A stretch of DNA of 64,000 bases from the human T2T-CHM13v2.0 reference genome, Homo sapiens: NCBI GenBank assembly GCA_009914755.4, contig CP068257.2:224001-288000 (forward strand). Direction: 5' to 3'. Position numbers and translations under genes: made by a program. A model generated the notes under the pieces. It did no database searches, had not been told where the DNA came from, and worked only from the letters and a program-made list of their open reading frames with translations. This document shows positions 110 through 56,390 of this stretch, in pieces (positions within the stretch are counted from its first letter, which is position 1; the number at the start of each line of letters is the position of its first letter).

Positions 110-2370
110 CAACCTGAGGCTCTCAACCCTCCCTGGAAATTGGGGTTTCACATCAATTTCTGGGTGGATCCTTAAGCTCCAGGTGGATATCCAGTGTCCA
201 GCTGAACATCATCCCCTCGTGGACGCCCAGTACCCAGGTGGATATCAGGTCTCAGGTGAACACAAGTCACCAGTCAGACATGAAGCACGAGGTACACACT
301 CAGACCCCAAGAGGACATCTGTCTCCATGTTGACATCACTCTCAAGGTGTACATTAGGCCACATATGTACACCCAGTTCCAAGGCATACACGAGTCCCCA
401 GTAAAACTCAAGGCCCCAGGAGGAGACTCAAGCCGTAGGTGGATGCCCAGACCCCAGGTAATTACAAGGCCCCAGGTGGATATCAGATTCCAGATGAACA
501 TTAGGCCCCAAGTGGATACCTAGGCCCCTAGTAAACCTCAGATTCTAGGTTGACATTGAGGCCCCCAGTAGTCATTTGGACCCATGTTGACACTCAGGTG
601 CCAGGTTCACATGATGTCTTAACTGGACACCAAGGGGCCAGTTTGATACCCAAGTCCTGTGTGGGTGCCAGGTCCAGGGTTACACTCAAGCCCCAAGTGG
701 ACACCAGGCCCTAGGTGAATAACACAACCCAGGTGGTCATTAGGCCCCAGAATGACACCATCCCCCAGGTTAACAGGAAGCCCCCAGTGGGTACCTAGGC
801 CCCAGGTGGACATCAGGCCTAATGTGGACACCCAGGATCAAGATGGACATCAGGACTCAGGTGGACATCTGGTGACAGGTGGACAACAAGCCTGGTGTGT
901 ACCTTGTCCCCGGGTGGTCATCAGGCCCCAGTTCAACACCAGTCCCTGGGTGGATTCCTCGGCTCCAGGTGGACATCCGGTCTTCAGCTGAACATCAGAC
1001 CCCAGGTGAACACCAGGTCTTAGGTGGACATTAGGCCCCTGGTGGACATAAAGTACCAGTGGACATCCATGCTGCAGGTGGACACCCAGCGCCCAGATGG
1101 GCATCAGGCCACATTTGGACATTGAGGCCCCAGGTGGATATCACGCCTCAGGTGAACCCAAGGTCCAACATAGACATCAGGCCTTAGGTTGATGCTCAAG
1201 CACCAGATGGACTGCTGCACCTAAGCAGAAAATAGACCCCTATCTGGATATCTAAGATACAGGTATACAACAAGCCCCAGGCTGACATCCAGACCCCAGG
1301 TGGACACCATACCCCAGGTGAACAGCAGGCAACAGTTTGGCACCAAGTGCCTAAGTGAAACAAAGCCTTAGGTGGTTACCAGGCCATAGGTAGTCATTAG
1401 TCTCCAGCTGGACAATAGTCCCTAGGTGGATACCTAGGCCCCAGGTGGACACTAGACCCCAAATTAACACAAAAACCAAGTAAAAAATCAAGCCCCAAGT
1501 GGACAACCAGGCCCTAGGTAAATACACAAATCTCAAGCTGACACCAGGACCTATTTGGACACCCAAGCCCTAGGTGGACTTCAGGCCACAGGTGAACACT
1601 GAACTCTAGAAGGTCTTCAGGCACCGTGTTGACTACCTGGCCCCAGGGGGACACCAGGTATAGATGAACTTCAGGCACCAGCTGTACATGAGGTTCCAGG
1701 CAAATGTCCAGGCCCCAGGTGGATATCAAACCTCAGATGAACACCAGGCCCCAGGTAGACATCACAAACCAAGTGGACACTCAGGCCCCTACTGAATATC
1801 CATCCCCAGGTGGACATCCATCCCAAGGTGGACATGAGGTCACAGATGTACACTTAAGCCTAAGGCAGACCCCAGGCCCCGGGAAAACTCCAGGCTCCAT
1901 GAGGGCACTCAGACCCCAGGTGGATGCATTGGTCCTAGGTAAATACAAGGCCCCAGATAGACATCAGGCTCCAGTGAACACCGGAGCCCAGGTGGGTACC
2001 TAGTGTCCAGGTGTGCAACAAGCAGAAGGTTGACCCAGTCCCCAGCTGAACTCTGGGCCCCAGCTGGACATCATAACCCAGATCGTCACCCAGGCGGTCA
2101 CCCAGGCTCCAGGTGAACACATGGTCTTAGGTAGACATCAGGCCCCACATGAACACCCAAGCCCCAGGTAGATAACAGGCCTTAGATGTACACCAGACCT
2201 CAGGTGGGCATCTGGCTTCAGATGGCCGTAGGTGGATAACTAAGCCTCTCCTGGATATCAGGCCCCAGGTAGACACCAGGCTCCAGGCGAACATCTAGCC
2301 CCAGGGGGACATCCAGCCCCCGGTGAACATCAGGGCTCACATGGATAAACAGTTTACAGATGGGCACCTG
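110..2370. repeat. Degenerate tandem array of ~18-20-bp units, motif about CCCCAGGTGGACATCAGGC, ~120 copies at ~70% identity
   Basis: Direct reading: the recurring CCAGGTGGACATCAGGCC-like motif with an 18-20 bp period runs across the whole interval. The short ORFs on both strands follow the repeat phase. Confidence 0.75.
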
Positions 2371-5300
2371 CCACAGGTGCCTCACCTCTACTCCCTGAAA
2401 CCTCACTTCCCCTCATGGGCCTTCTGTCCGACTTGGGGTACCCCTAGCCGCCCTAGGCACACACTGGACTCGAACCAGGGGTGCCAGAGTCCCTAGGGCT
2501 CAGCGCAAGGGTTCATGGGAATACACTTTCGTCCGTGGGGGACCCAGTCCTCAATTCTCGGTGGCGCAGTTTTTTTTTCTCTGCCACAGGTACCTCACCT
2601 TCCCCTCATGGGCCTTCTGTACACCTTGGGGTACCCCTAGCGGCCCGAGGCATACCCTGGGCTCGAACCAGGGATGCCAGGGTACCCGGGGCGCAGCGCA
2701 AGGGCTGATGGGGAGACACTTTCTTCCGTGGGGGACCCAGGCCCCGCTTCTCTGAGGCGCGTTTTTTTTTTCCTCTGCCCCAGGTGGGTCACCTTCCCCT
2801 CATGGGCCTTCTGCCCGCTTTGGGGTACCCCTAGCGGCCCCAGGCACACACTGGGCTCGAATAAGGGTCGCCAGGTTCCCCGGGGCCCAGCGCAAGGGTT
2901 GATGGGAAGACGCTTTCACCCGTGGGGGACCCAGGCCCCGCTTCTCCGCAGTGCGGTTTTTTTTTTGTTTGCCCTAGGTGACTCACCTTCCCCTCATGGG
3001 CCTTCTGTCTGCTTTGGGTTACCCCTAGCAGGCCAGAGGTGCACCCTGGATTCCAGCCAGGGATGCCAGGGTCCCCGGGGCCCAGTGCAGGGGCTGATGA
3101 GAAGGCATTTTCGTCCGTGGGGTACCCAGGCCCTGCTTCTCTGTGGCGCAGTTTTATTTTTTTCTTTTCTGCCACAGGTGCCTTACCTCTCCTCCCTCAA
3201 ACCTCACCTTCACCTCATAGGCTTTCTGTCCGCCATGGGGTACCCCAAGAGGCCCGAAGCGCACCCTGGTCTTGAACCAGGGATGCCAGGGTCCCCTGGG
3301 CCCAGCTCAGGGGCTGATGGGAAGACACTTTCATCCGTGGGGGACCCAGGCCCCGCTTCTCCGTGGCAGTTTTTTTTTTCTCTGCCTCAGGTGCCTCACC
3401 TTCCCCTCATGGGCCTTCTGCCCGCTTTTTGGTACCCCTAGCGAGCCCAAGGCGCACCCTGGGCTCGAACGAGGGTCGCCATGGTCGACGGGGCCCAGCG
3501 CAGGGGCTGATGGGAAGGCACTTTCATCCGTGGGGGACCCAGGCCCCGCTACTCCGTGGTCCAGTTTTTTTTTTTTTTTTCCTCTGCCCCAGGTGCCTTA
3601 CCTTTCCTCCCTCAAACCTCACCTTCCACTCCTGGGCTTTCTGCCTGCGTTGGAGTACCTCTAGCGACCCGAGCACACCCTGGGCTCGAACCAGAGACGC
3701 CACGGTTCCTGGGGCCCAGTGCAGGGGCTGATGGGAAGACACTTTCGTCCGTGGGGGACCCAGGGCCCGCTTCTCGGCGGCGCGGTTTTTTTTCTCTGCC
3801 CCAGGTGCCTCACCTTCCCCTCAGGGGCCTTCTGCCTACGTTGGGATACCCTAGCAGTCCCGAGGCGCACCCTGGGCTCTAACCAGGGACGCCAGGGTCC
3901 ACAGGGCCCAGCTCAGGGGCTGATGGGAAGACACTTTCGTCTGTGGGGGACCCAAGCTCTGCTCCTCCGCAGGGTTGTTTTTTATTTTTTTCTCTTCCCC
4001 AGGTGGCTCACCTTCCCTTCATGGGCTTTCTGCTCGCCTTTGGGTACCCCTAGTGGGCCTGAGGCTCACCCTGGTTTCGAGCCAGGGATGCTAGGGTCCT
4101 CGGGGCCCAGCGCAGCGCTGATGGGAAGGGATTTCTGTCCGTGGGGGACCCAGGGCCCGCTTCTCCGAGGTGAGTTTTTTTTTTTTCTGCCGCAGGTGCT
4201 TCACCTCTCCTCCCTCAAACCTCACCTTCCCCTCATGAACCCTCTGCCCGCCTAGAGGTACCGCTAGCGGCCCAAGGCACACCCTGTGGCTGAACCAGGG
4301 ACGCCAGGGTCCCTGCGGCCCAGCACAGGCGCTGATGGGAAGACACTTTCTTTCGTGGAGGACCCAGGCCCCGTTTCTCAGTGGCGTGGATTTTTTTCTC
4401 TGCCCGGGTGCCTCACCTTCCTCTAATGGGCCTTTTGCCCGCTTTGGGTTACCTCTAGCAGGCCCTATTCGCACCCTGGGCTCGAACCAGGGTCGCAGTG
4501 TCCACGAGGTCCAGCGCAAGGCCTGATGGGAAGGCACTTTCGTCAGTGGGGGACCCAGGCCTCGCTTCACTGTGGCGTGTTTTTTGTGTGTGTGTGTGCC
4601 ACAGGTGCCTCACCTTCCCCTCATGGGCTTTCTGTCCACCTTGGGGTACCCCCAGCTGCCCGAGGCGCACCCTCGTCTCAAATCAGGGATGCCAGGGTCC
4701 CTGGGGCCCAGCGCAGGGCCTGATGGGGAGGCACTTTCGTCTGTGGGGGACCCATGCCCTGCTTCTCCGTGGCGCGGTTTTTTTTTTTTTTCCTGCCACA
4801 GGTGCCTCACCTCTCCTTCCTCAAACCTTACCTTCCCCTTATGGGCCTTCTGTCTGCCTTGGGGTACACCTAGCGGCCCGAGGTGCACTGTGGGCTCGAA
4901 CCAGGGACTCCAGGGTCCCTGAGGTCCAGGGCAAGGCCTGATGGGAAGACACTTTCGTCCGTGTGGGGGACCCAGTCCCCGCTTCTCCGCGGCGAGGTTT
5001 TTTTTTCCTCTGCCCCAGGTGCCTCACCTTCCCCTCTTGTGCCTTCTGCACGCTTTGGGGTACCCCTAGCGGCCCGAGGCACACCCTGGGCTCGAACCAT
5101 GGAAGCCAGGTTCCACGGGGCCAAGCACAGTGGCTGATGGGAAGACACGTTCTTCCTTGGGGACCCAGGCTCTGCTTCTCTGCAGCGTTTTTTTTTTCTT
5201 TCCCCCAGGTGACTCACTTTCCCGTCATGGGCTTTCTGCCCGCCTTGCGGTACCCATAGCGGGCCCGAGGCGCACCCTGGTTTTGAGCCAGGGATGCTAG

Positions 5301-7945
5301 GGTCTCCGGGGCCCAGTGCAGGGCTGATGGGTAGGGACGTTCGTCCATGGGGGACCCAGGCCCCACTTCTGGGCGGTGCAGTTTTTTATTTTTTTCTCTG
5401 CCCCAGGTGTCTCACCTTTCCCTCATGGGCCTTCTGTCTGTCTTGGGGTACCCCTAGCAGGCCGAGGTGCACGCTGGGCTTGAGCCAGGGATACCAGGGT
5501 CCCCGGGGCGCAGTGCAAGCACTGATGGGAAGACAGTTTCTTCTGTGGGGGACCCAGGCCCCGCTTATCCGCGGCGCGGTTGTTGTTTTTTTTTTTCTCT
5601 GCCCCACGTGCGTCACCTTCCCCTCATGGGCCTTCTGCCCGCTTTTGGGTACCCCTAGCAGCCTGAAGCCCACCCTGGTCTCGAACCAGGAATGCCAGGG
5701 TCCCCTGGGCCCAGCGCAAGGGCTGATGGGAAGACACTTTCGTCCGTTGGGGACCCAGGCTCTGCTCCGTGGTGCAGTTTTTTTTTTTCTGCCACAGGTG
5801 CCTCACCTCTCCTTCCTCAAACCTCAACTGCCCCTCATGGGATTTCTGCCCGCCTTGTGGTGCACCTAGCGGGCCCGAGGCGCACCTGGGGCTCGAACCG
5901 GGGTCTCCAGCGTCCACAGGGCCCAGCGCAGTGACTGATGGGAAGGCATTTTCATCCGTGGGGGACCCAGGCCCAGCTTCTCCTAGGCGCGGCTTGTTTT
6001 CTTTTTTTTTTCTGCCACAGGTTCCTCACCTCTCCTCCCTCAAACGTCAACTTCCCATCATGGGCTTTCTGCCCGACTTGGGGTACCCCTAGTGGCCCAA
6101 GGCGCTCCCTGGACTCGAACCATGGATGCCAGGGTTGCTGGGGCCTAGCGCAGGGGCTGATGGGAAGGTACCTTCATCCGTGGGTAACCAGGCCCTGCTT
6201 CTCAAAGCTGCGTTTTTTTTTTCTCCGCCCCAGGTGCCTCACCTTCCCCTCATTGGCCTTCTGCCTGCTTTGGAGTACCACGAGCAGGCCCGAGGCACTC
6301 CCGGGTCTCCAACCAGGGTCGCCAGGTTGTCGGGGCCAGCGCAGGAGCTGATGGGAAGGCACTTTCATCAGTGGGGACCCAGGCCCGGCTTCTCCGAGGT
6401 GCTGATATATATATATATATTTTTTCTGCCACAGGTGACTCACCTCTCCTCCCTTAAATCTCACCTTCCCCTCATGGGCTTTCTGGCTTCCTTAGGGTAC
6501 CCTAGAGTGCCGGAGTCTCTTCTGGTCCTTGAACTAGGGTCGCCATGGTCCAGGGGGCCCAGCGCAGGGGCTGATGAGAAGGCACTTTCATCCGTGGGAG
6601 ACCCAGGCCCCGCTTCTCCTCGGCACGGTTTTTTTTTTCTGCCACAGGTGCCTCACCTCTCCTCCCTCAAACCTCACCTTCCCCTCATGGGCCTTCTGCC
6701 CGCTTTGGGGTACACCTAGCAGGCCCGAGGTGCACCCAGGCCTAGAACCAGGGTCGCCTGAGTCCACGGGGCCCAGCGCAGAGACTGATGGGAAGGCACT
6801 TTTTTTCCATGGGAGACCCAGGCCCCACTTCTCCGTGGCGCGGTTTCTTTTTCTTTTCTGCCACAAGTGTCTCACCTCTCCTCCCTCACAGCTCACCTTC
6901 CTCTCATGGACTTTCCACCACGTTGGGGTACCCCTAATGGCCCGAGGCTCTCCCTGAGCTCGAACCAGGGACTCTAGGTTCCCCGGGACCCAGCGCAGGG
7001 GCTGATGGGAAGGCACTTTCATCCGTGGGGGACCCAGGCCCCACCTCTCCGTGGCGCGGGTTTCTTTTTTTCTTTTTCTGTGACAGGTGCCTCACCTCTC
7101 CTCCCTCAAAACTCACCTTCCCCTCATGGGCTTTGTGTCCCCAAAGCCCCCCTTGGGGTGCACTTAGTGGCCGAGGCACACCCTGAGCTCGAACGAGGGA
7201 CACCAGGGTCCCTGGGTCCCAGTGCAGGGACTGATGGGAAGACACTTTCGTCCGTGGGGCACCCAGGCCGTGCTTCTCCGCAGCGAAGTTTTTCTTTTTT
7301 TCTCTGCCCCAGGAGCCTCACCTTCTCCTTAGGGGCTTTCTGCCCACCTTGGGGTACCCCTACTGTCCTGAGGCATACCCCATTGTCAAACCAGGGATGC
7401 CAGGGTCCCCAGGGCCCAGCAAAGGGGCTGATGGGATGGCACTTTCATCCGTGGGGGGCCCAGGCACTGCTTCTCGGCTGAGCGTTTTTTTTTCTCTGCC
7501 TCAGGTGCCTCACCTTCCCCTCATGGACCTTTTGTTCGCTTTGTGGTACCCCAAGCTGACCCGAGGCACACCCTGGGCTCGAACCAGGGTCGTCAGGGTC
7601 CACCAGGCCCAGCATAGGGCCTGATGGGAAGGCACTTTCATCCGTGGGGGACCCAGGTCCCGCTTCTCTGAGACGCGGTCCTCTTTTTTTTTTTTTCTGC
7701 CCCTGGTGCCTCACCTCTCCTCCCACAAACTTCAACTTCCACTCATGGGCCTTCTGTCCAAGTTGGGGTACCCCTAGTCGCCTGAGGCACACACTGGGCG
7801 TGAACCAGGGATGCCAGGGTCCCTGGGGCCCAGCGCAAGGGCTGATGGGAAAAAACTTTCGTCCCTGGATGACCCAGACACCGCTTCGCGGCGCATTTTT
7901 TTTTCTTCTTTGCCCCAGGTGTCTCACCTTCCCCTCATGGGCCTT
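2370..7945. repeat. GC-rich, CpG-rich satellite with ~197-bp monomers, ~28 copies. Each monomer has a plus-strand poly-T run. Gamma-satellite-like (GSAT family) or subtelomeric GC-rich satellite; the family is unconfirmed
   Basis: Poly-T landmarks sit at about 2568, 2762, 2957, 3163, 3372, 3565, 3787, 3976, 4177, 4391, 4581, 4777, 4997, 5188, 5380, 5580, 5777, 5996, 6213, 6419, 6630, 6850, 7063, 7282, 7485, 7681 and 7878, giving a mean spacing of ~197 bp. The conserved monomer core is CTCTGCCCCAGGTGCCTCACCTTCCCCTCATGGGCCTTCTGCCCGCTTTGGGGTACCCCTAGCGGCCCGAGGCACACCCTGGGCTCGAACCAGGGATGCCAGGGTCCCCGGGGCCCAGCGCAGGGGCTGATGGGAAGACACTTTCGTCCGTGGGGGACCCAGGCCCCGCTTCTCCGTGGCGCGG. Confidence 0.85.
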
Positions 7946-8285
7946 CTGCCTCTCTGCGCCTTTCGCCAGCGCTGTGGGCCTCTCTGCACCTGCGCCGGCG
8001 CTGTGCGCCTTTGCGAGGGCGGAGCTGCGTTCTTCCCAGCACAGACAAGGAGAGCATCGCCAGGGCGGAGCTGAGTTCTCCTCTGCACAGACTTCAGAGA
8101 TACAGCGAAGGCGGAGCAGTGTTCTCCTCAGCACAGACCCAGGCGGGCCGGGGGCACTGCGAGGGCGGAGCTGCGTTCAGCTCAGCACAGACCCGGGGGA
8201 CACCGCTAAGGCAGAGCAGCGTTCTCAGCACAGACCTTTGGGGCACTGCCTCGCTTTGGGACAACTCGGGACCGCATAGACCGTG
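7946..8285 (+). repeat. TAR1-like telomere-associated repeat, the terminal portion that normally abuts (TTAGGG)n, oriented with the telomere side to the right
   Basis: The tract CTGCACCTGCGCCGGCGCTGTGCGCCTTTGCGAGGGCGGAGCTGCGTTCTTCCCAGCACAGAC...GGCGGAGCAGTGTTCTCCTCAGCACAGACCCAGGCGGGCCGGG matches, from memory, the reverse complement of the TAR1 segment next to human p-arm telomeres. That segment reads ...GTGCAGAGGACAACGCAGCTCCGCCCTCGCGGTGCTCTCCGGGTCTGTGCTGAGGAGAACGCAACTCCGCCGTTGCAAAGGCGCGCCGCGCCGGCGCAGGCGCAGAG. Confidence 0.6.
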
Positions 8286-8656
8286 AATAAAATCCTTCCC
8301 TTTTGCAGCCCTGAATAATCAGGGTCAGAGACCAGTTAGAAGGGCTCAGTGTGGAAAAGGGAAGCCAAAAGCCCCTCTGAATCCTGCCCACCGAGGTTCT
8401 CCCCAGCCAAGCCGAGGCGGCCGCAGTGCGAGATCCACACCGCAGCCTCGGAAGACAAATGCAGCATTCCTAATGCAGACATGACACCCAAAATATGACA
8501 CCCCCATTGCTCATGTAACAAGCACCTGTAATGCTAATGCACTGCCTCAATACAAAAATATTAATATAAGATCCGCAATCCCCTTGCTGCCATGCAGTCC
8601 TAAGACAGAGATCATAATAATCAACATTGACATAGTACAAACCTAGTAACGAACCT

Positions 8657-8949
8657 AGGGTTAAGGTTGGTGTTAGGGTTAGGGGTTAGGGGTTAAGTTT
8701 AAGGTTAGGGGTTGGAGATAGGGGTTGGGGTCAGAGTTAAGAGTTAAGAGTCAACGTTTAGAGTTAGAGGTTAGGAGAGGTTAGGGGTTAGGGATAAGGG
8801 GTTAGGGTTGGATTAGTGTGAGGGTGAGGGTTGGGGTTAGGGGTTAGGCTTAGGGTTTACGGTTAAGGGTTAGGGTTAGGGTCAGGGGTTAGGGGTCAGG
8901 GTCAGGGGTTAAGGATCAGGGACAGGGGTCAGGGTCAGTTTCAGGGGTC
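8657..8949 (+). repeat. Degenerate interstitial telomeric repeat: (TTAGGG)n with TTAGGGG, TCAGGG and TTGGGG variant units
   Basis: Direct reading: GGTTAGGGGTTAGGGGTTAAG...GGGTTAGGGTTAGGGTCAGGGGTTAGGGGTCAGGGTCAGGGG. The G-strand is on the plus strand. Confidence 0.8.
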
Positions 8950-11516
8950 CCACTCTTTGAGTTGTCCATTTACTCTGCTGACAGTTCCCTTTGCCATGAA
9001 AAAGCTGTTTAGTTTAATTAAGTCCCAGCTATTTATCTTTGTTTTTATTGCATTTGCATTTGGGTTCTTGGTCATGAAATCCTTGCGTATGTCAATGTCT
9101 AGAAGGGTTTATCCAGTGTTATCTTCTAGAATTTTTATAGTTCAGGAATTAGATTTAAGTTCTTAATCCATCTTGAGTAGATTTTTGTATAAGATGAGAG
9201 ATGAGAATCCATTTTTATTCCCCTACATGTGGCTCGCCAATTATCCCAACAGCATGTGTTGAAAAGGGGGTCCTTTCCCCACTTTATGTTTTTGTTTGCT
9301 TTGTCGAAGATCAGTTGGCTGTAAGTATTTGGGTTAATTTCTGGGTTCTCTCTTCTGTTCCATTGGTCTATGTTCCTATTTTTAAACCAGTACGTTGGTG
9401 TTTTGGTAACTATGGCCTTATTGTACAGTTTGAAATCAAGTAGTGTGATACCTCCAGGTTCTTTTTGCTTAGGCTTGGTTTGGTTACATGGCTCTTTTTT
9501 GGTTCCATATTAATTTTAGAATTGTTTTTGTAATTCTGTGAAGAATGATGGTGGCATTCAGATGGGGATTGCATTGAATTTGTAGATTGCCTTTAACAGA
9601 ATGGTAATTTTCACAATATTGGTTCTACCCATCCATGAGCATGGGGATGCGTTTCCATTTGTGTGTGTCATCTATGATTTCTTTTCTTTCGTTTTTTTTT
9701 TTTTTTTTTTTTTTTTCAGAGGGAGTTTCGCTCTTGTCGCTGAGGTGGGAGTGCAATGGTGTGATCTCGGCTCACTACAACTTCTGCCTCCCGGGTTGAA
9801 GCGATTCTCCTGCCTCAGCTTCCCGAGTAGCTCGGATTATAGGCATGTGCCACCGTGCTTGGCTCCATCTATGATTTCTTTCAGTAGTGTTTTGTAATTT
9901 TCATTCTAGCTGTCCTTTGATTTCTTTGCTAGGTATATTCCTAAGTTTTGTTTTTTTGTTGTTGTTGTTTGTCGCAGCTATTGTAAAAGGGGTTGAGTTC
10001 TTGATGTGATTCTCTGCTTGGTAGCTGTTGATGTATGGAAGAGCTACTGATTTGTGTCCATTAATCTTGTATCTGGAAACTTTGCTGAATTCTTTTATCA
10101 GTTCTAGGAGGTTTCTAGAGGAGTCCGTAGGGTTTTCTAGGCAAAAGATTATATCATCAGCAACAAGTGACAGTTTGACTTCCTCTTTACCGATTTGGAT
10201 TTCCTCTATTTCCTTCTTTTGTCTGATTGCTCTGGCTAGGACTTCCAGTACTATGTTGAAGAGGAGTGGTGAGAGTAGGCTCCTCATCTTGTTCCAGTTC
10301 TCAAAGGGAATGCTTTCACCGTTTCCCCATTCAGTATTATGTTGGCTGTGGGTTTTTCATAGATGGCTTTTATTACATTAAGGTATGTCGCTTGTATGCC
10401 TATTTTGCTGAGAGCTTTAATCATAAAGCAATGCTAGATTTTGTCAAATGTTTTTTTCTGCGCCTGTTGATATAATTATATTAGATTTTTTTTAATTCTG
10501 TTTATTTGGTGTATCACACTTATTGACTTGCATATGTGAAACCACTCCTATATCATTGGTATAAAACCCACTTGATCATGCTGGATTATTTTTTGATATG
10601 TTGTCGGATTCAGTTAGATAGTATTTTGTTAAGGATTTTGGCATCTGCATTCATCAAGGATATTGGTCTGTAGTTTTCTTTTTTGGTTATGTCCTTCCAT
10701 GGTTTTGGTATTAGAGTGATGCTGGCTTCATAGAATGAATAAGGGAGGGTTTCTTCTTTCTCTGTTTTGTGGAATAGTATGAAAAGATTGGTATCATTTC
10801 TTCCTTGAATGAAAGAAGACATTCTTTGAATGTCTGGTAGAATTCTGCTGTGAATCTGTCTGGCCCTCAGCTTTTTTTGCTGGTAATTTTAAAATTACCA
10901 TTTCAATCTTACTGCTTGCTTTATTGGTCTGCTTGGGGTATCTAATTCTTCCTGATTTAAGCTAGGAGAGTTGTATTTTTCCAGGAATTTATCCAACTCT
11001 TCTAGGTTTTGTAGTTTATGTGCCAAAAGGTGTTCATAGTACCCTTGAATAATCTTTAATATTTCAGTGGTGTCAGTTGTAATATCCCGTTTCATTTCTT
11101 AGTGAGGTTATTTGGATTTTCTCTCTTCTTTTCTTGGTTAATCTTGCTAATGGTCTATCAATTTTATTTATCTTTTCAAATAAGCAACTTTTTGTTTTAT
11201 TTATGTTTTGTATTTGTTGTTGTTGTTGTTGTCGTTGTGTCAATTTCATTTAGTTCTGCTCTGATCTTTGTTATTTCCTGTGTTTGCTGGGATTGGGTTT
11301 GGCTTGTTCCTGCTTCTCTAGTTCCCTGAGATGTGAACTTAGATTGTCTGTTTGTGCTCTTTCAGACTTTTTGATGTAGGTTTTTAGGACTACAAACTTT
11401 GCTCTTAGCAGTGCCTTTGCTGTATCCCAGAGGTCTTGATAGGTTGTGTCATCCAGTTCGAAGAAATTTTTTACATTTCCATCTTGATTTCATTTTTCAC
11501 CCAATGCTCATTCTGT
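8950..11516 (-). mobile_element. L1 element (primate L1P-like), 3'-truncated. It lacks ~0.9 kb of its 3' end and covers most of ORF2
   Basis: The plus strand reads as L1 antisense. Minus-strand ORFs 9901-10287, 10610-10822 and 10895-11095 translate to L1 ORF2 reverse-transcriptase and endonuclease motifs ([18 protein letters not shown]..., ...[12 protein letters not shown]...). Confidence 0.85.
9697..9872 (-). mobile_element. Partial Alu (right monomer) inserted in the L1
   Basis: A poly-T run followed by antisense Alu sequence: GAGGTGGGAGTGCAATGGTGTGATCTCGGCTCACTACAACTTCTGCCTCCCGGGTTGAAGCGATTCTCCTGCCTCAGCTTCCCGAGTAGCT. Confidence 0.8.
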
Positions 11517-11667
11517 GAGGAACAACCAAATTGTTTTCCGCAGCAAGGGCATCATTTTCTATTCCTAGCAGCCAGATCATGAGGACTCCAACTTCTCCAC
11601 CTCCTTAGCAACATTTATTTTCTGTGTCATTGTTATGAAAGCCTTACTTGTGGATGCAGAGTGGCAT
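11517..11667 (-). mobile_element. L1M ORF2-3' fragment, copy A of a 151-bp direct repeat
   Basis: About 88% identical to 12875-13025. Both copies end in GTGGCAT. Confidence 0.7.
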
Positions 11668-12874
11668 GAATGAAGTCAATTAACACGTTTATTACCTCAC
11701 AGAATAGTCACCTTTTTGTGTGCATGGGTGGGATAAGAAAACTTAACTCTATCCCCTGTGACGGAATAGTGGCCATTCCAGCTGCTCCAGGCTCCAGCAG
11801 AGGAAGACCGGGGTATGTGGCCCCACCAGGGTGACCCTCAGGCCTGGCGCGCACGCATTCCAGAGGCCACCCAAACCATGCTCCGCCATCTGGGCGCCCA
11901 AGCTGCCGTCGCCCTCTGTGTGCAGGCAGCAGCTGCCTGGCAACCCCTGAGCCCGCTCGCGCTCCTAGCATCACAGAAGCAGGGCCACGTGTCCCAGTGG
12001 CTGCAGCCAAGCCAGGCATTCTGCCCTGCGGCAGCAGCTGCACAGGAGCGAGAACTGAGAACCCACCGCTCAACCCCACACGAGGTGACTGCCGAGTGCC
12101 CATACAAACGGCTCCGATCTCCCTCAGGTGGAGGAGTGGGCGGGAGGCACGGCCTGGGGGCCCTCAGGCTGGGCGCGCTGGCGATCCCAAGGCCGACCAG
12201 GCCATGCACCTCCAGCCTGCCTGGGCACCCGAGCTGCAGCCGCCTTCTGCGTGCAGGCAGCAGCCTCCAGGCAACTCCCGAGCCCGCCCACACTCCCCAC
12301 ATCTCGGAAGCAGGGCCAAATGTCCCTGTGGCTGTGGCCAAGCCAGGCGGTCTCTCCTGCAGCAGCTGCACAGGGGCGGGAACCGGCCCTCAGCCCCATT
12401 CCCGGTGGCTGTAGAGGGCCCCTGGATAGAGATCTGGAGCTCTGACAGAGGAGGAGCCGGGCCGGGGCAGGGTCTGGCAGGCTCTCAGGCCAGGGGCACC
12501 TGTGATCCAGAGGCGGCCCAGGGCATGCTCCACCACCTGGGCACCCAGCTACAGGCGCCGGGCGACTCCCAAGCTGGCTGCCACGCCCAGCCTCGCAGAA
12601 CCGAGGCTAGATGTCGCCGTGGCTGCGACCAAGCCAGGCGGTCTTCCCAGGGGTGGCTGCACCGGGGCAGGAACCGACCCTCAGCCCCATCCCCGGTGGC
12701 TGCAGACGGACCCTGGGGCGGCCCCGATCTCTCTTCGGAGGAGGAGAGGGGCGGGAGTCACGGCCAGGCGGGCCCTCAGGCGGGAAGGAATGCGCGCCTG
12801 CGATTCCGGGACGTCCCGCGCCAGCCCAGGAAAACCCGCAAGCCAGCGGCGCCTGTTTCTCTGTGTGATTCTTT
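11668..12874. repeat. 1.2-kb segment inside L1M: ~100 bp of AT-rich sequence, then a CpG-dense GC-rich block made of three diverged ~325-bp tandem units plus a partial fourth. Origin unclassified
   Basis: The units at about 11795-12120, 12120-12445 and 12445-12770 share blocks such as CCTCAGGC..GGCGCGC, GCAGGCAGCAGC, CCAAGCCAGGCGGTCT, GCAGCTGCACAGGGGCGGGAAC and CCTCAGCCCCAT(T/C)CCCGGTGGCTG. The long overlapping ORFs on both strands (11997-12926 plus, 11838-12371 minus) are what GC-rich non-coding DNA produces. Confidence 0.65.
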
Positions 12875-15400
12875 GAGGAACCACCAAACTGTTTTCCACA
12901 GCAAGTGCATCATTTTCTATTCCTAGCAGCCAGTTCATGAGGGCTCCAGTTTCTCCACTTCCTTAGCAACATTGATTTTCTGTGTCGTTGTTATGAAAGC
13001 CTTACTAGTGGATGCAAAGTGGCATCTCATTTGGGTTTTGCCTTGCATTTTATTAATGAATAATGGTGTTTAGCATCTTTTCTTTTCCTTCTTAGACATT
13101 TGTGTATCTTCTTTGGAGAAACGTCTGTTCAAGTCCTTTGCCTATTTTTTAATTGGGATCTTAGAAATTCTGTTGTTGAGTTGTGGGATATTAAGCTTTT
13201 ATCAGATACACATTTTGATTTTATCAGATACATATTTTCTCACATATTATGGGTTGTCTTTTCACTCCCTTGATAGTATCCTTTGATGCATAAAGGGTTT
13301 TTTATTTTGATTAAATCTAATTTTCGTGTATTTTCTTTTGTTATCTGTGCTTTTCTGTCATATTTCAAAATACACTTAAAACTCAAAGGTCATAAAGGTT
13401 TACCGTGTGTTTTCTTCTAAGAGTTACATATTTTTAGTCCTTACATTTAAGTCTTTTATTAATTTAGAATTAATTTTTGTATATACTGCAATGTAGGGGT
13501 CTAACTTCTCTCTTGTGCACTGATATCCAGCTGTTGAAGAAACTGTTCTTTCCTCCCTTGACTAGACTTGGCCACCTTGTTGAACAGTCATTGACCATAT
13601 ATGTGAGGACTAACTTGTAGGATCTCAAATCTGTTCTGTTGTATTGGTCTGAAAGTCTATTGGTCTTATTCCAGTACCACACTCTCTTGATTACTGTAGA
13701 TTTGTAGTAGGCTGTGAAACTGAAAAATGTGAGTTTTCCAATGTTCTTTTTCAAGACTGTTTTGTCTGTCAGATCCTTTGAATTTTTGTATGATTTTAGA
13801 ATGAGTTTCTTTGTTTCTGCAAAAATGCCTTTGGGATTTTGATGGTATTGCATTGAATCTGTAGATTACTTTAGATGGTATTGTCATCTTAACAATATTG
13901 TCTTACAACCCGTGAACACAGAATGTCTTTCCACTTATTTCCACTCTCTTTAGTTTTTTGCAGCAATGTTTTGTGTATACCACCATGGTTAGATTTATGC
14001 CTGAATAACGTATTCTTTGGTGTCATTATAAATGGAATTTTTAAAATGTTTTCATAGTTCTTTACAACTATATAGAAATATAGCTCATTTGCCTATGTTT
14101 GTTTGCATCCTGCCTCTTTTATTAGTTATAATCGGTTTTGTGTTTTGTTTGGAGCTTTATACCCATAAGATCATGTGTAGATATAATTTTACACCTATTC
14201 TTTATTTCTAATTTAGATGCCTTTTATTTCTTTGTCTTGCCTAATTGCTCTGGCTAGAACTGCCAGTGCTACGTTGAATACAAGTGGCAAATGCACCATC
14301 CTTTTCTTCTAGATGTTAGGAAAACAGCTTTCAGTGTTTCATCATTGATCATGATATTAACTGTTGGGTTTTTGTACATCCCATTGTCATGTTGCAGAAG
14401 ATCCCTTCTATGCCTAGTTTATTGAGTATTTTTATTATAGAAGGGTGTTATATTTCATCAATGTTTTCTCTGCATCAATTGAAATAGTCACGTGCTTATT
14501 CATTTTACTGTTACAGCATATTACACTGATTGATTTTTTATATGTTGAACCACCCTTGCATTTTGTGGATAAATCTCAAAGGGTGATAGTTTACAATCCT
14601 TTGATTATACAGAATTGCTGCTAGTATTTTGCTAGTATTGCTAGTATTTTGCTGAGATTTTTGCTTATATATTCATAAGGGATATAGTGCTGTATTTCTC
14701 TCTTTTGTGCTCTCTTTGTCTTTGGTATAAGGATAATGCTGTTATCAAAAAATGAATTAGCAAGTATTCCTTCTTCATATATTTTGTCAGAAGAGTTTGA
14801 GAATAAATGGTATTAATTCTTCTTTAAATGTTAGGTTGACTCACCAGTTAATGCAGCTATTTGGTCATAAATGTTTCTTTGTTAATCGCTTTCGATTACT
14901 AATTCAATCTCCTAGGTTATAGGTCTATTCAGATTTTCTCTTTCTTCTTGAGCCACTTTGGTAGTTTGTGTCTTTCTAGCGATTCATCCATTTCATCCAG
15001 GGCACCTAATTTGTTGCTAGACAGTTGTTCACAGTATACTCCTGTAATCCTTTTGTATTTCTGTAAAGTTGGTAGTAATGGCTCTGCTTTCATTTATTAT
15101 TTTAATAATTAGTCTTCCATCTTTTGCTCAGTCAATATAGTGAAAGGCTTGATCTTTCAAAGAATCTACATTTTTTCATTCTACTGCTCTCCAACCTTCT
15201 ATTTTATTGATTTATGCTCTAATTATGCTCTTTATTATTTCTTTCCTTCTGCTAGCTTTGGATTTAGTCTTCCACCTGGATTTATTTTGGGAGTGATATT
15301 GATGTAACTTCATGGAAATAATACTAGATAGAAAGTTAGTGGATAGATTCTCTATCTGATGAGAGTTTGGGGCAAGTCGAGTACCAGGTTACCAAGTTTT
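12875..15400 (-). mobile_element. Old L1 (L1M/L1P-like): ORF2 region running into the ORF1/5' region, with the 5' end to the right. Copy A' of the 151-bp direct repeat is at its left end (12875-13025)
   Basis: The plus strand reads as L1 antisense continuously. Examples: ...TTCTGGTCTTATTCCAGTACCACACTCTCTTGATTACTGTAG..., ...GTCATCTTAACAATATTGTCTTACAACCCGTGAACACAGAATGTCTTTCCA... Confidence 0.8.
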
Positions 15401-24303: not shown

Positions 24304-25185
24304 CCTGATGAAACTGGAGACTTCCCTGACTCCCCTTGGCAGGATGTGCAACAGGGGTGTGGCTTGTCTGGCCACCGTGTGTGCTGTCAAACCCCTTACT
24401 GGGCAGGGGAGCATGCAGACAGGCAGGTGCAATAGGCAGGGCAAGTGGCCATGGTACTGTCTAGGGGTGGGTTCCTGCGACTCCCACAGCCCAAGTGGGC
24501 ATGTGTTACAGTGCACTCTTTTAGCTTTGCCATCCACAGACGGCTTAAGTGTTAACCTGTTCAGTGCCCTCTTGGTACCCAGTTCCTTGTCCAGCATCCA
24601 GAAAGAATTAAGTTGCACACAGACTTGAGGATGGTGAATGTGGGGGTTTTATTGAGTGGTGGAGGTGGCACTCAATGGGATGGATGGGGAGCTGGAAAGG
24701 GGATGGAATGGGAAGATGATCTTCCCCCGGAGCTTTGCCATCCAGAGGCTGATCTCTCCAACCACTGCCAGCCAAACTCCTCTAGGCATTCAGATGCTCC
24801 TTCTCTTCTTTCTGCCACATCATTCTGCAATTCTGCTCTTCTGTTCATCTCCTCATCTGCTTGCCATCCAGAGGCTGATCTCTACAACCACTGCCAGCCA
24901 AACTCCTCTTGGCATTCAGATGCTCCTTCTCTTCTTTCTGCCACATCATTCTGCAATTCTGCTCTTCTGTTCATCTCCTCATCTGCTTGTCTGCTTCTGG
25001 AGCCTGGGGTCTGGGGCATATATGGGTACAGGACAGGGGGTGCATGGTGAGCTGAAAGACAACTTTTGGGTGCAAAAGCAGGAATGCCTGTTCCCATTTA
25101 GGGCCATGGGTTTCCAGGCTTGTGGGCAGGGCTTTGCCAGGGAACCACTCTCTTCTACCCAGTATTTCCCTGTCTCCTTTCTATA
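24304..25185. repeat. Unclassified 0.88-kb insertion within L1, possibly an LTR or MER fragment. It contains a perfect-ish 121-bp tandem duplication (24737-24857 and 24858-24978)
   Basis: L1 antisense is contiguous across the gap: ...AATTTACATTCC | insert | CACCAGCAGTGTATAAGCATTCCC.... The two 121-bp units begin CATCCAGAGGCTGATCTCT(C/A)CAACCACTGCCAGCCAAACTCCTCT. The plus-strand ORFs 24613-25050 and 24656-25312 are inflated by that duplication. Confidence 0.55.
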
Positions 25186-25847: not shown

Positions 25848-28800
25848 TGTACATGCCCCTGTGATATTGTTCCTAATATCCAGGTTGGGAGAGGATATTA
25901 TACTCAATATTGCAGGAAGTGTCGACCACCCTGAATATTGCTTTTAATATCCGGGGAGAGAGGGTGATATTACTCCCAATATCATCCTCTCCCCCCACAC
26001 CCTGCATAGTACAAGCAATATCAAAGGGGGTCTGTGCAACACCTGCAATATTGGGAGTAATATCCTCCCCCAACATGGATATTAGAAACAGTATCACAAG
26101 GGGTTGTACACCACCTGTGATATTATGGAGTACTATCATTTTCTTTCCCCATGGATATGTAGAACAATATCACAAAGGTGGTGTACAACCCCTGCTATAT
26201 TGGGAGTAATACTGTACTTTCCTCACCTAGATATTAGGAACAATATCACGGGGGGTTATACACCACTGCAACATTGGGAGTAATATCATCCTTTCCCTCC
26301 CTGGATATTAGGAACAATACCTCATGGGTGTGTACACCCTGTTCCATATTGGGATTAATATTTTCTCCCTTGCTGGACATAAGGAAAAATATAACGGGGG
26401 GTATACACTCCTTATGATATTGCCAGTAATATTATAGACTCCCCAAAGGGATATTAGAAAAAGTTTCAGAGAGGGGTGTACATCCCCTGCGATATTGGGA
26501 ATAATATTCTTTCATCCCTGGATATTAGGAATAATATCACAAAGGGGTTTTATACCCCCCGTGACATTTTAATTAATATCATCTTCCCCACTGAATATTA
26601 GGAACAAATTCCCAGGGGTGGTACACCACCTGCAATATGGACAGCTATATCATTGTCTCTCCCCCGAATATAAGGAACAATATCACAAGGGGGTTGTACA
26701 ACCCCTGTGATATTGGGAGTAACTTTATACCCTTTCCACATGGATATTAGGAACAATATCACAGGGTGGGTGTACACCCACTGCGATATTGGGAGTAATA
26801 TCATCCTCCACCCCCTGGGTATTATGAACAATATCATGGGGAGGGGGTGTATGTCCTCTGTGATATTGGGAGTAATATCATCCTGTCCCCTCTGGATATT
26901 AGGAATGATATCACAGCGGGGCTGTACCTTTTCTGCACTATTGGGAGTGGTATCACCCCCTCCCCCTATGGATATTAGGAACAATATCACAAAGGGGGTG
27001 TACACATCCTGTGATATTGAGAGTAATATTGTCCACTCTTCCCTGGGATATTAGGAACAATATCACAGGCAGAGTGTACACCCCCTGCTATTTTACCTGT
27101 AATATTATTCTCATCCAACTTGGATATTAGGAATAATATAACAGGAGGGGTGTACACCACCTGTGATATTGGGAGTAATATCATTCTCTCCCCCCATGGA
27201 TATTGAGAACAATATCACAGGGGCGGTTTACACTTCCTGCGCCATTTAGAGTAATATCATCCTTTTCCCCCATGGATATTAGGAACGATATCGCATGGGA
27301 AGTGTACACGCCCGCCATATTGGGAGTAATATTTTCTCCCTTGCTGGACATTAGGAACAATATCACGGGAATGCACACACCCTGCGATATTGCCAGTAAT
27401 ATTGTAGTCTCCTCCCAGGATATTAGGAACAATATCACAAGGGGGGTGTACATGCCCTGTGATATTGGAAGTAATATCATCGACTCCCCCCACGGATATT
27501 AGTAACAACATCAGAAGGGGTGTACACCCCTTGTGATATTTATAGTACTATCATCCTATACCCCCTGGATATTAGGAACAATACAACGGAGGGGTGTATA
27601 CCCACTGTGATATTGGGAGTAATTTCATCCTCTACCCCTTGGATGTTAGGAGCAGTATCACAAGGGGGGTGTCCACCCTCTGTGATATTAAAAATAATAC
27701 CATTCTCTCCTTCTCTGGATACTAGGAATAATATCACAGTGCTGGTGTGCACCCTTTACACTATTTGGAGCAATATCACCCTCTCCCCAACTTGATATTA
27801 GAGACAATATCATGGGGGGTGGCGTGTAACACCCTGCACTGTTGGGAGTACTATCATCTATTCTTCCCCTGGATATAAGAAACAGTATCACAGAAGGGGT
27901 CTACACCTCCTGAGATTTTGGGAGTAATATCATCCTCTCCAAATCTGGATATTAAGAACAGTATAATGGGGTGTAGGGAGTAATATGGTGGGAGTAATAC
28001 AATCCTCCTCCCCACTTGATATTAGGAACAATATCGCAAAACGTGTGTACACCCACTGTGACATTTGGAGTAATATCAACATTTCCCCACCTGGTATCAC
28101 GGGGAGAGTGTACACTCCTTATGATATTGGAAGTATCATTGTCTCTCACTCTCGATATTAGGAAAAATAGCACAGGGTGTGTATACACTTCCTGTGATTT
28201 TGGGAAGAACATCATACCCTTCTGTCTTTGATATTAGGAACAATATCACAGAGGGGATGTACAACTTATGTGATATTATAATATTCTTTCTTCCCATGGA
28301 TATTAGGAATGATATCCCGGGGGGCTTGTTGTACACACCCTGTGATACGGACAGTAATATCATTGTCCTTCCCCCTACATATTAGAAACAATATCACAAG
28401 GGTGGTATACATCCCCTGGATATTAGAAACTATCACAGGGGGGCTGTACAACCTCTTTGATACTGTGAGTAATACCATTGTCTCCCCTCCTGGGTATTAA
28501 TAACAATATCATAGGGTGGGTGTACACCCCCTGCAATATTGGGAATAATATCATCCTGTCTTCCCCGGGATATTAGGAATGGTATCACAGGTGGGGTTTA
28601 CACCCCCTGCAATTTTGTCAGTAATATTACTTCTGGATGTTATTGAATATATCACAGTGGGGGTGTACACCCCCTGTGATATGGGGAGTAATAGCATCCT
28701 CTTTCCCACTGGGTACTACAAACAATATCGCAGATTGTGTACAACGTCCTGTGATATTGTTCACAATATTTAGGGAAGGAGAGGATGATATTACTCCACA

Positions 28801-54183: not shown

Positions 54184-54416
54184 TCAAAGTAACATTAATG
54201 AGAACCAACATAAAATAGACAAGATTCACTATCTACAAAAGTAATCTGCACCAATTAGCAATGTATGAGCATGTGGTTGAGAATATTGTCTATAATATGT
54301 GTACTAGAACGAAGAGACCTCAAGAAAATGGTCAGAGCTGGAAATGTAGATTTGGGAATCTAGGTCAAAGTTTTGAGATTTTAGGAGTCCTGAGAGAATT
54401 TAAAAAGAGAATTAGC

Positions 54417-56390
<1,974 letters not shown>

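What the first reader, a model, noticed from the sequence alone, without database searches (positions are those of the whole stretch)
7946..8949. Interstitial telomere-like block: TAR1-like sequence plus a degenerate (TTAGGG)n tract, with a further 55 kb of ordinary sequence beyond it
7946-8285 matches, from memory, the distal end of the TAR1 telomere-associated repeat that normally abuts the terminal TTAGGG array. After a ~360-bp AT-rich spacer comes a 290-bp degenerate telomeric array on the plus strand (TTAGGG, TTAGGGG, TCAGGG and TTGGGG variants, typical of proximal or ancient telomere repeats). The block is oriented as a q-arm-type chromosome end pointing right. Instead of ending, the sequence continues into a 3'-truncated L1 and tens of kb of Alu- and L1-rich DNA. 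This is the signature of an ancient telomere or subtelomere captured internally, or a subtelomeric duplicon boundary. Such sites mark past chromosome-end rearrangements.
Basis: partly seen in the sequence, partly recalled or inferred. Interest (0 to 1): 0.62.

Follow-up and report, generated by a model that had tools for sequence, protein, structure and literature searches.

The report
Internalised chromosome end, one of many copies
This is a real relic of a primate chromosome end (telomere-adjacent repeats plus a worn telomere tract) that was joined to an old L1 element and then copied to many places in the genome; this class of locus has already been catalogued in the complete human genome, so it is ordinary.

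Summary
Window 7948-8949 reads, left to right: two 29-bp CpG-rich repeats, five GGCGGAG..GCACAGAC repeats, about 260 bp of "pre-tel" sequence, a 144-bp extra spacer, then a 294-bp degenerate G-strand telomere tract (12 TTAGGG, 0 CCCTAA). Four published human subtelomere and TERRA primers map to the pre-tel part in order. At 8949/8950 the tract abuts a minus-strand L1 cut at ORF2p residue 1036.

A motif scan of metagenome contigs returned 45 primate (human-type) contigs. Twenty-one carry the same telomere/L1 junction, at 96-98.6% identity, so it is not a misjoin. Two contigs carry the same module, but their tract runs about 300 bp further into perfect TTAGGG at the contig end. Others join the module to different DNA.

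Two corrections apply. The "AT-rich spacer" is 48% GC, and most of it is canonical telomere-adjacent sequence. Only the distal part of TAR1 is present, and a ~200-bp satellite replaces the rest.

This matches the interstitial TERRA-like promoters flanked by telomeric tracts catalogued in T2T-CHM13 (106 loci). Known kind, low interest.

The parts
2401..7947 (+). About 27 copies of a diverged, GC-rich ~200-bp satellite (periods 193-229) that directly abuts the 29-bp repeats. It belongs to the duplicated chromosome-end module. It resembles gamma satellite in unit length and composition only.
   Evidence: TRF. GC 61%, CpG o/e 0.45. The satellite/TAR1 junction is shared by about 25 contigs. GSATII is described as a diverged GC-rich ~200-bp repeat in PMC2588610. 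Sequence membership was not tested.
7948..8010 (+). 29-bp CpG-rich repeats, 2.1 copies (GCCTCTCTGCRCCTGCGCCGGCGCTGTGC type). This is the core element of TERRA promoters.
   Evidence: TRF period 29. GC 73%, CpG o/e 0.86. Copy number differs among paralogous contigs, shown by overlapping HSPs. Role as minimal promoter: 10.1101/2025.05.15.654290.
8017..8250 (+). Five tandem GGCGGAG..GCACAGAC repeats (period about 46-53 bp; the fifth is degenerate). I take these to be the '37-bp repeats' of the TERRA-promoter literature, from their position and order.
   Evidence: TRF period 46. Four motif matches against 0 expected. Direct reading of the sequence.
8251..8511 (+). 'Pre-tel' sequence: single-copy DNA that lies next to the telomere at true human chromosome ends.
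   Evidence: Primers 10q-F, XqYq-R, Subtel2, 15q-F and XqYq-F map collinearly at 8299-8414 with 2-4 mismatches. TTGCTCATGT at 8507 matches the last subtelomeric bases of the 15q junction primer, after which 15q goes into TTAGGG.
8512..8655 (+). Extra 144-bp AT-rich spacer (38% GC) between pre-tel and the telomere-like tract. The end-type copies have it too, so it belonged to the ancestral chromosome end.
   Evidence: Composition. Conserved in L043, L026 and L005. A 'spacer' between pre-tel and telomere is reported at 5p, 6q, 7q and 12q in 10.1101/2025.05.15.654290. Equivalence was not tested.
8656..8949 (+). Degenerate G-strand telomere tract (interstitial telomeric sequence). It holds the only three G-quadruplex-type motifs on the + strand of the window.
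   Evidence: The same order of variant repeats appears in all paralogs and in the end-type copies.
8949..8950 (.). Junction between the telomere tract and the L1 (..TTTCAGGGGTC|CCACTCTTTGAG..). The position is uncertain by about 2 bp because of possible microhomology.
   Evidence: The 15-mer CAGGGGTCCCACTCT across the junction is in 21 of 45 contigs. The window-specific 70-mer is in L041.
8950..11474 (-). Old L1 fragment (L1-A), ORF2p residues 270-1036, truncated at both ends. It is interrupted by a 5'-truncated Alu (9685-9865) with a 16-bp target-site duplication (9669-9684 and 9866-9881).
   Evidence: PDB 8uw3 alignment. tblastn gives 46-71% amino-acid identity and many frame breaks. Alu and its duplication.

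Best explanation
Window 2401-8949 is the distal part of an ancestral primate chromosome end. It consists of a ~200-bp satellite, the distal TAR1 / TERRA-promoter elements (29-bp repeats, 37-type repeats, pre-tel, a short spacer), and the variant-repeat zone at the base of the telomere. That end pointed right.

In an ancestor, the telomere had been cut down to about 290 bp of its proximal variant repeats. It was joined to a broken DNA end inside an old, already decayed L1 (at ORF2p residue 1036). The joining was most likely end-joining with 0-3 bp of microhomology. This put the former chromosome end inside a chromosome.

The composite was then copied by segmental duplication to many loci. The window is one copy, probably human and probably on an acrocentric short arm or a similar duplication-rich region.

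Today it is most likely a relic. Its 29+37 block still meets CpG-island criteria, and the tract is G-quadruplex-prone. It could therefore act as one of the interstitial TERRA-like promoters that transcribe rightward into the tract.

Shown: the anatomy, the orientation, the multi-copy status, the shared junction, and the existence of end-type and differently joined copies.
Inferred: the direction of the event (end first, then capture), the joining mechanism, the chromosomal location, and any transcription.
For: Anatomy and orientation.

Family. The motif scan of metagenome contigs gave 45 primate contigs, one of them labelled human skin metagenome. Eighteen cover 8011-9500 at 96.2-98.6% identity to the window and 95.5-99.6% to each other. 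The junction is in 21 contigs.

End-type copies. In L043 and L026 the tract matches the window repeat for repeat. It then continues through about 300 bp of further variant repeats into perfect TTAGGG at the contig end. Their non-CpG K2P distance to the window is 0.009-0.025.

Other partners. L022 joins the tract to unrelated DNA. Six contigs leave the module at 8313 and five at about 8260. There are at least six different left flanks, including canonical TAR1 with the 61-bp-repeat marker in L033.

The L1 is old: about 58% mean amino-acid identity to human ORF2p, with many frame breaks.

CpG o/e is 0.67 at 66% GC over 7948-8250, against 0.21-0.29 in flanking L1 and downstream DNA.

Literature:
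- 106 interstitial TERRA-like promoters in T2T-CHM13. 55 have 29-37-pre-tel next to a telomeric tract and no 61-bp repeat. One cluster of 22 has 16 members on acrocentric short arms. 105 of 106 lie in segmental duplications (10.1101/2025.05.15.654290).
- Subtelomeric patchworks arise by translocations of chromosome tips, and internal telomere-like islands sit at duplicon boundaries (PMC4032850).

Location hint: an AluS-like element followed by 26 copies of a 64-bp unit at 54416-56388 matches the AluSx-WaluSat array of '26 copies (Chromosome 15)'.
Against: No genome mapping or RepeatMasker/Dfam run was possible. The TAR1 label rests on primers, repeat architecture and homologous contigs, not on the curated consensus.

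The comparison contigs are low-coverage short-read metagenome assemblies of a repeat family, and some are mosaics. L011 is 1% diverged up to 8900, 5-20% in 8950-10600 and 0-3% after that. L041 is mixed as well. The pairing of particular left and right flanks, and the distances, are therefore unreliable.

L043 and L026 end in TTAGGG at a contig end. This fits a true telomere, but it would also fit a long internal tract.

No contig is identical to the window (best 98.6%), so the species and locus are not proven.

No transcription, methylation or protein-binding data bear on present-day activity.
Confidence: 0.82

Rival explanations
1. The junction was made by endonuclease-independent L1 retrotransposition onto an uncapped telomere. 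The 3' end of the G-strand primed reverse transcription inside an L1 RNA. This would lay down antisense L1 cDNA directly after (TTAGGG)n, and the far end was later joined to other DNA.
For: The geometry is what this mechanism predicts. The G-strand tract is followed on the same strand by antisense L1, starting at an internal L1 position with no poly(A) and running toward the L1 5' end. Possible 2-nt microhomology at the junction comes from reading the sequence. L1 insertion at dysfunctional telomeres has been shown in cultured cells (Morrish et al. 2007, as reviewed in PMC4700185).
Against: L1-A is an old, decayed element: 46-71% amino-acid identity to human ORF2p and more than ten frame breaks in 2.3 kb. 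By my reading of diagnostic residues it is of L1PB/L1MA type. The end-type and L1-joined copies differ by only 1-2.5% at non-CpG sites, so the capture looks far younger than the activity of that L1 family. The 5' end of L1-A sits against a second, older L1 (13409-15271 plus fragments at 11510-11667), as expected for an ordinary nested insertion that was later broken.
Confidence: 0.06
2. The L1-joined form is ancestral. A purely internal duplicated block happened to contain TAR1-like and telomere-like sequence. The copies that end in TTAGGG arose later, when a break in the tract was healed by telomerase.
For: Internal telomeric tracts can seed new telomeres (general knowledge). The contigs cannot show which form came first.
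Against: Beyond the point where they leave the window's tract, L043 and L026 carry about 300 bp of further variant repeats (TCAAGGG, TGAGGG, TAAGGG, TTTTAGGG) before the perfect repeats begin. Telomerase healing would add uniform TTAGGG. L022 truncates the same array at another point and joins it to other DNA, which fits repeated capture of one end. The module upstream of the tract matches sequence that lies next to true telomeres at 10q, 15q and XqYq.
Confidence: 0.07
3. The join at 8949/8950 is an assembly misjoin between a true chromosome end and unrelated DNA. A related alternative is that the tract is a short telomerase-added insertion at a repaired double-strand break.
For: Telomere-like sequence followed by unrelated repeats is a classic misassembly picture. 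Short internal telomeric tracts made during break repair are common (10.1101/2025.05.15.654290).
Against: The same junction occurs in 21 independently assembled contigs from many samples. The tract is degenerate, 294 bp long and preceded by 700 bp of subtelomere-type sequence. It is not a short clean insertion flanked by unique DNA. There is no head-to-head CCCTAA array, so it is not a 2q-type fusion either.
Confidence: 0.02

Closest known systems
Interstitial TERRA-like promoters flanked by interstitial telomeric sequences, the class without the 61-bp repeat ('type K' of Santagostino et al., bioRxiv 10.1101/2025.05.15.654290)
   Same: 29-bp repeats, 37-type repeats and pre-tel next to a telomere-like tract. 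No 61-bp repeat. Multi-copy, embedded in duplicated DNA. Probable acrocentric context.
   Different: The window has an extra 144-bp spacer before the tract. That paper reports a spacer only for some true subtelomeres (5p, 6q, 7q, 12q). I could not check the window against their Table S3 coordinates.
TAR1, the telomere-associated repeat at most human chromosome ends (61-29-37-pre-tel organisation)
   Same: The distal elements are present in the canonical order and orientation relative to the telomere repeats.
   Different: The 61-bp repeats and the proximal TAR1 part are missing, and a ~200-bp satellite takes their place at 7947/7948. The block is internal, with 55 kb beyond it.
Internal telomere-like islands at boundaries of subtelomeric repeat elements (Stong et al. 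2014, PMC4032850; Linardopoulou et al. 2005 as cited there)
   Same: A degenerate tract oriented like the terminal array. It is flanked on the proximal side by degenerate versions of subterminal elements, and it marks a change of paralogy.
   Different: Those islands lie within the last few hundred kb of chromosome arms. The window's location is unknown and may be an acrocentric short arm.
Head-to-head fusion site at human 2q13-q14
   Same: TAR1-type sequence next to a degenerate internal telomere tract.
   Different: There is no inverted CCCTAA array. The tract meets an L1, not another telomere.

Membership tests
TAR1 / subtelomeric TERRA promoter | CpG-rich 29-bp tandem repeats | tested here: met
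   TRF period 29, 2.1 copies at 7948-8010. CpG o/e 0.86. The published range is about 1-45 units.
TAR1 / subtelomeric TERRA promoter | '37-bp' repeat tract distal to the 29-bp repeats | tested here: inconclusive
   Five GGCGGAG..GCACAGAC repeats sit in the right place. Their period here is about 46 bp, and no paper held here prints the 37-bp unit for comparison.
TAR1 / subtelomeric TERRA promoter | Pre-tel sequence shared with true chromosome ends, adjoining the telomere repeats | tested here: met
   Primers designed on 10q, XqYq and 15q, plus the generic Subtel2 primer, map collinearly at 8299-8414 with 2-4 mismatches.
TAR1 / subtelomeric TERRA promoter | 61-bp repeats (CTCF sites) and the proximal TAR1 part | tested here: not met
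   Primers 16p5, 10q2, 21q3 and 10q1 have no match at 5 or fewer mismatches in the window. All four match contig L033.
TAR1 / subtelomeric TERRA promoter | Match to the curated TAR1 consensus (RepeatMasker/Dfam) | not testable with these tools
   No repeat library is available. Rfam has no such family.
Interstitial TERRA-like promoter with ITS (type K) | 29-37-pre-tel next to a non-terminal telomere-like tract, without 61-bp repeats | tested here: met
   55 kb of sequence follows the tract.
Interstitial TERRA-like promoter with ITS (type K) | Lies in a segmental duplication shared with other such loci | tested here: met
   Eighteen or more contigs cover 8011-9500 at 96-98.6% identity. Homology runs at least from 145 to 11391.
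Interstitial TERRA-like promoter with ITS (type K) | Drives transcription into the tract | not testable with these tools
   No expression data. Only CpG-island-like composition supports it.
Telomere-telomere fusion ITS (2q13 type) | Head-to-head (TTAGGG)n-(CCCTAA)n arrays | tested here: not met
   0 CCCTAA in 8656-8949. The tract is followed by an L1.
Short ITS inserted during double-strand-break repair | Short, near-perfect repeats flanked on both sides by unique non-subtelomeric DNA | tested here: not met
   294 bp at 66-71% matches, preceded by TAR1-type sequence.
Endonuclease-independent L1 insertion at a telomere | G-strand repeats followed by antisense, 3'-truncated L1 without poly(A) | tested here: met
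Endonuclease-independent L1 insertion at a telomere | The L1 is of a family active when the junction formed | tested here: inconclusive
   The L1 is heavily decayed (about 58% amino-acid identity). End-type and joined copies differ by 1-2.5%. This argues against the mechanism, but contig mosaicism and possible gene conversion weaken the dating.
Gamma satellite (GSATII) for the 2401-7947 array | Diverged GC-rich ~200-bp tandem unit | tested here: met
   Periods 193-229, 69-72% matches, 61% GC. Description from PMC2588610.
Gamma satellite (GSATII) for the 2401-7947 array | Sequence match to the GSATII consensus | not testable with these tools
   No consensus is available.

The most novel reading that the evidence does not exclude
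The telomere/L1 junction is a germline fossil of endonuclease-independent L1 reverse transcription primed by an uncapped telomere. So far this event is known only from repair-deficient cultured cells. On this reading it was fixed and then amplified by segmental duplication. The geometry fits exactly (G-strand tract, then antisense L1 with no poly(A), starting inside ORF2). Only the apparent age of the L1 argues against it.
Probability: 0.05. Interest if true: 0.6.

Novelty: already known. Interest (0 to 1): 0.15.

Why it matters
Such sites record past rearrangements of chromosome ends. They mark boundaries of duplicated blocks, and they may add to the pool of telomeric-repeat RNA or bind CTCF and cohesin.

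This one adds little. The class has been enumerated in the complete human genome: 106 loci, most in segmental duplications and many on acrocentric short arms. The window looks like an ordinary member.

Its modest value is as a worked example. The degeneracy of an internal telomere tract can be inherited from the variant-repeat zone of a live telomere, so degeneracy alone does not date the internalisation.

Tried and rejected
- Exact-product look-ups of two window ORFs found nothing on record.
- TAR1 strings searched in full text of papers gave no hits. Primer strings worked instead.
- Both scans of bacterial/archaeal genome contigs (TAR1 motif, junction motif) and two viral-contig scans found nothing.
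- I suspected the ~200-bp satellite unit was tRNA/SINE-derived, because of a GGTTCGAGCC-like T-arm on the minus strand. ARAGORN found no tRNA and Rfam gave only a chance-level miRNA hit. Dropped.
- I tried to date the junction from contig L011, which lacks the Alu at 9685-9865. L011 proved to be a mosaic: 1% mismatch up to 8900, 5-20% in 8950-10600, 0-3% after that. The 'empty site' is untrustworthy and the argument was dropped.
I replaced it with a stitched query against PDB chains.
- TELO-composite of Hoyt et al. was considered. Its defining 49-bp 'ajax' array and 'teucer' duplication have no counterpart in the TRF table. Not pursued.

Full report
**What is in the sequence**

The window is primate DNA. 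It contains Alu and L1 elements and gives a 7SL-derived hit in Rfam.

At the coordinates given, the + strand reads as follows.
- 2401-7947: a 5.5-kb array of a diverged, GC-rich ~200-bp satellite.
- 7948-8010: two 29-bp CpG-rich repeats.
- 8017-8250: five repeats of the form GGCGGAG..GCACAGAC, period about 46 bp. Four match the motif at 3 or fewer mismatches against 0 expected.
- About 8251-8511: single-copy sequence.
- 8512-8655: a 144-bp AT-rich stretch.
- 8656-8949: a G-rich degenerate telomere tract.

The tract has 12 TTAGGG and no CCCTAA, while the remaining 63.7 kb has 10 TTAGGG. GTTAGGGG (6 times) and TTAGGGTTAGGG (twice) occur nowhere else in the window. All three G-quadruplex-type motifs on the + strand of the window lie in this tract.

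**Is the left part telomere-associated sequence?**

No repeat library is available, so I used two independent anchors.

The first anchor is published primers designed on true human subtelomeres. These are 10q-F, XqYq-R, XqYq-F and 15q-F (PMC5796220) and Subtel2 (PMC2847243). They map to 8299-8414 in the same order and on the strand expected for a telomere to the right, with 2-4 mismatches each. The decamer TTGCTCATGT at 8507 matches the last subtelomeric bases of the 15q junction primer, after which 15q enters TTAGGG. It is 47.6% GC overall, and only about 144 bp is extra.

Primers marking the 61-bp repeat and the proximal TAR1 part find nothing in the window. Only the distal TAR1 elements are present.

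The second anchor is a scan of metagenome contigs. I used a 26-base motif shared by the window and my recollection of TAR1. It returned 45 contigs. One is labelled human skin metagenome, and all carry primate repeats. These give real related sequences.

**The family**

blastn shows that most contigs are homologous to the window across satellite, TAR1-like block, spacer, tract and L1.
- Eighteen contigs cover 8011-9500 at 96.2-98.6% identity to the window and 95.5-99.6% to one another.
- The 15-mer across the tract/L1 junction is present in 21 contigs. The junction is therefore a genuine, duplicated feature and not a misjoin.
- A 70-base string with the window's private variants at the junction occurs in L041. 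The window's version therefore exists in DNA recovered from these samples, which favours a human origin. No contig is identical to the window overall.
- Homology extends at least from 145 to 11391.

**Copies that end differently**

L043 and L026 carry the same satellite, TAR1 elements, spacer and the same succession of variant repeats. Their tract, however, continues for about 300 bp of further variants (TCAAGGG, TGAGGG, TAAGGG, TTTTAGGG) and then becomes perfect TTAGGG up to the contig end. That is how a true telomere looks in a short-read assembly. L022 truncates the array elsewhere and joins it to unrelated DNA.

Six contigs leave the module at 8313 and five at about 8260, each group into its own flank. 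On the left there are at least six different flanks. These include canonical TAR1 with the 61-bp marker (L033) and a GC-rich block that also occurs in the window at 11668-12867.

This is the patchwork expected of chromosome-end duplicons. It also shows that the degeneracy of the tract was inherited from the variant-repeat zone at the base of a live telomere, so degeneracy does not date the internalisation.

**The right-hand partner**

A stitched translation of the minus strand aligns to human L1 ORF2p (PDB 8uw3) from residue 269 to 1036 of 1275. tblastn places residues 270-1036 at 8950-11474 with 46-71% identity and many frame breaks. The L1 is therefore on the minus strand. It lacks its last 239 codons, 3' UTR and poly(A), and it is old. 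It carries a 5'-truncated Alu with a 16-bp target-site duplication. Its 5' end sits against a second, older L1.

**Mechanism**

The best account is as follows. A chromosome end had its telomere reduced to about 290 bp of proximal variant repeats. That end was joined to a break inside a pre-existing L1. The composite was then spread by segmental duplication. This agrees with the accepted origin of subtelomeric patchworks by translocation of chromosome tips, and with internal telomere-like islands at duplicon boundaries (PMC4032850).

One rival deserves mention, because the geometry (G-strand repeats followed by antisense, poly(A)-less L1) is exactly that of endonuclease-independent L1 retrotransposition at uncapped telomeres. 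I rate it unlikely. The L1 is far more decayed than the 1-2.5% non-CpG distance between end-type and joined copies allows. The dating is soft, though, because the contigs are partly mosaic.

**Present-day role**

The 29+37 block keeps CpG-island composition: 66% GC and CpG o/e 0.67, against 0.21-0.29 in the flanking L1 and downstream DNA. In the literature the 29-bp repeats are the minimal TERRA promoter, and they carry NRF1 sites. Interstitial copies can be transcribed. Activity at this particular copy is untested.

**Comparison with what is known**

Santagostino et al. (10.1101/2025.05.15.654290) list 106 interstitial TERRA-like promoters in T2T-CHM13.
- 55 have 29-37-pre-tel next to a telomeric tract and no 61-bp repeat.
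- One sequence cluster of 22 such loci has 16 on acrocentric short arms.
- 105 of the 106 lie in annotated segmental duplications.

The window fits this class on every feature I could test. A further hint to location comes from 54416-56388. There an AluS-like element runs into 26.0 copies of a 64-bp unit. This matches the AluSx-WaluSat architecture and the '26 copies (Chromosome 15)' reported by Hoyt et al..

**Verdict**

The kind is already known and the interest is low.

The main uncertainties are the lack of direct genome mapping and repeat annotation, and the use of short-read contaminant contigs as comparators.

Noticed in passing
window 54416-56388: A full-length AluS-like element (+ strand) has an A-rich tail that runs directly into 26.0 copies of a 64-bp G-rich unit (97% matches). 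This is the AluSx-WaluSat architecture. The preprint 10.1101/2021.07.12.451456 reports exactly 26 copies on the chromosome 15 short arm, which hints at the window's location.
   Followed up: partly
window 11510-13025: A 1.2-kb GC-rich (67%) block at 11668-12867 has a ~300-330-bp internal periodicity. It is flanked by 158-nt direct repeats of old L1 sequence (91% identical). In contigs L036 and L021 the same block lies, inverted, directly against the 29-bp repeats. It is therefore another piece of chromosome-end DNA, possibly REP522 (recalled from memory, not tested).
   Followed up: partly
window 2401-7947: 5.5 kb of a diverged ~200-bp GC-rich satellite abuts the 29-bp repeats with no gap. Array length varies among paralogs: L014 lacks 3008-7315. 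It is gamma-satellite-like by unit size and composition. A tRNA-like T-arm motif in the unit did not survive ARAGORN or Rfam.
   Followed up: partly
window 686-2331: Runs of an 18-bp repeat (TCAGGCCCCAGGTGGACA) lie left of the satellite. They are also part of the duplicated module, shared with contigs L014 and L028 at 90-93% identity.
   Followed up: no
window 26016-29636: About 3.6 kb of a 75-76-bp minisatellite in three blocks. The unit contains the palindrome ATATCACAGGGGGTGTACACCCCCTGTGATAT, and the last block appears to be in inverted orientation. The isolated TTAGGG hits at 28770-29356 belong to this unit and are not telomeric.
   Followed up: no
L011:3060-5342 and L041:1-1306: Some metagenome contigs are mosaics of paralogs or of other L1 copies. 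L011 is 1% diverged from the window up to 8900, 5-20% in 8950-10600, and 0-3% after that. L041 is identical to the window over its last ~170 bp but resembles L043 upstream. Flank combinations in these contigs should not be taken as haplotypes.
   Followed up: yes
L019:700-800: In this contig the TAR1-like block is preceded by a short telomere-like run (GTTAGGGTTAGGATTCGGGTTCGG). In that copy a second internal telomere remnant therefore lies on the proximal side.
   Followed up: no
window 24735-24989: Two copies of a 126-bp unit at 98% identity, a recent local tandem duplication in otherwise unremarkable sequence.
   Followed up: no
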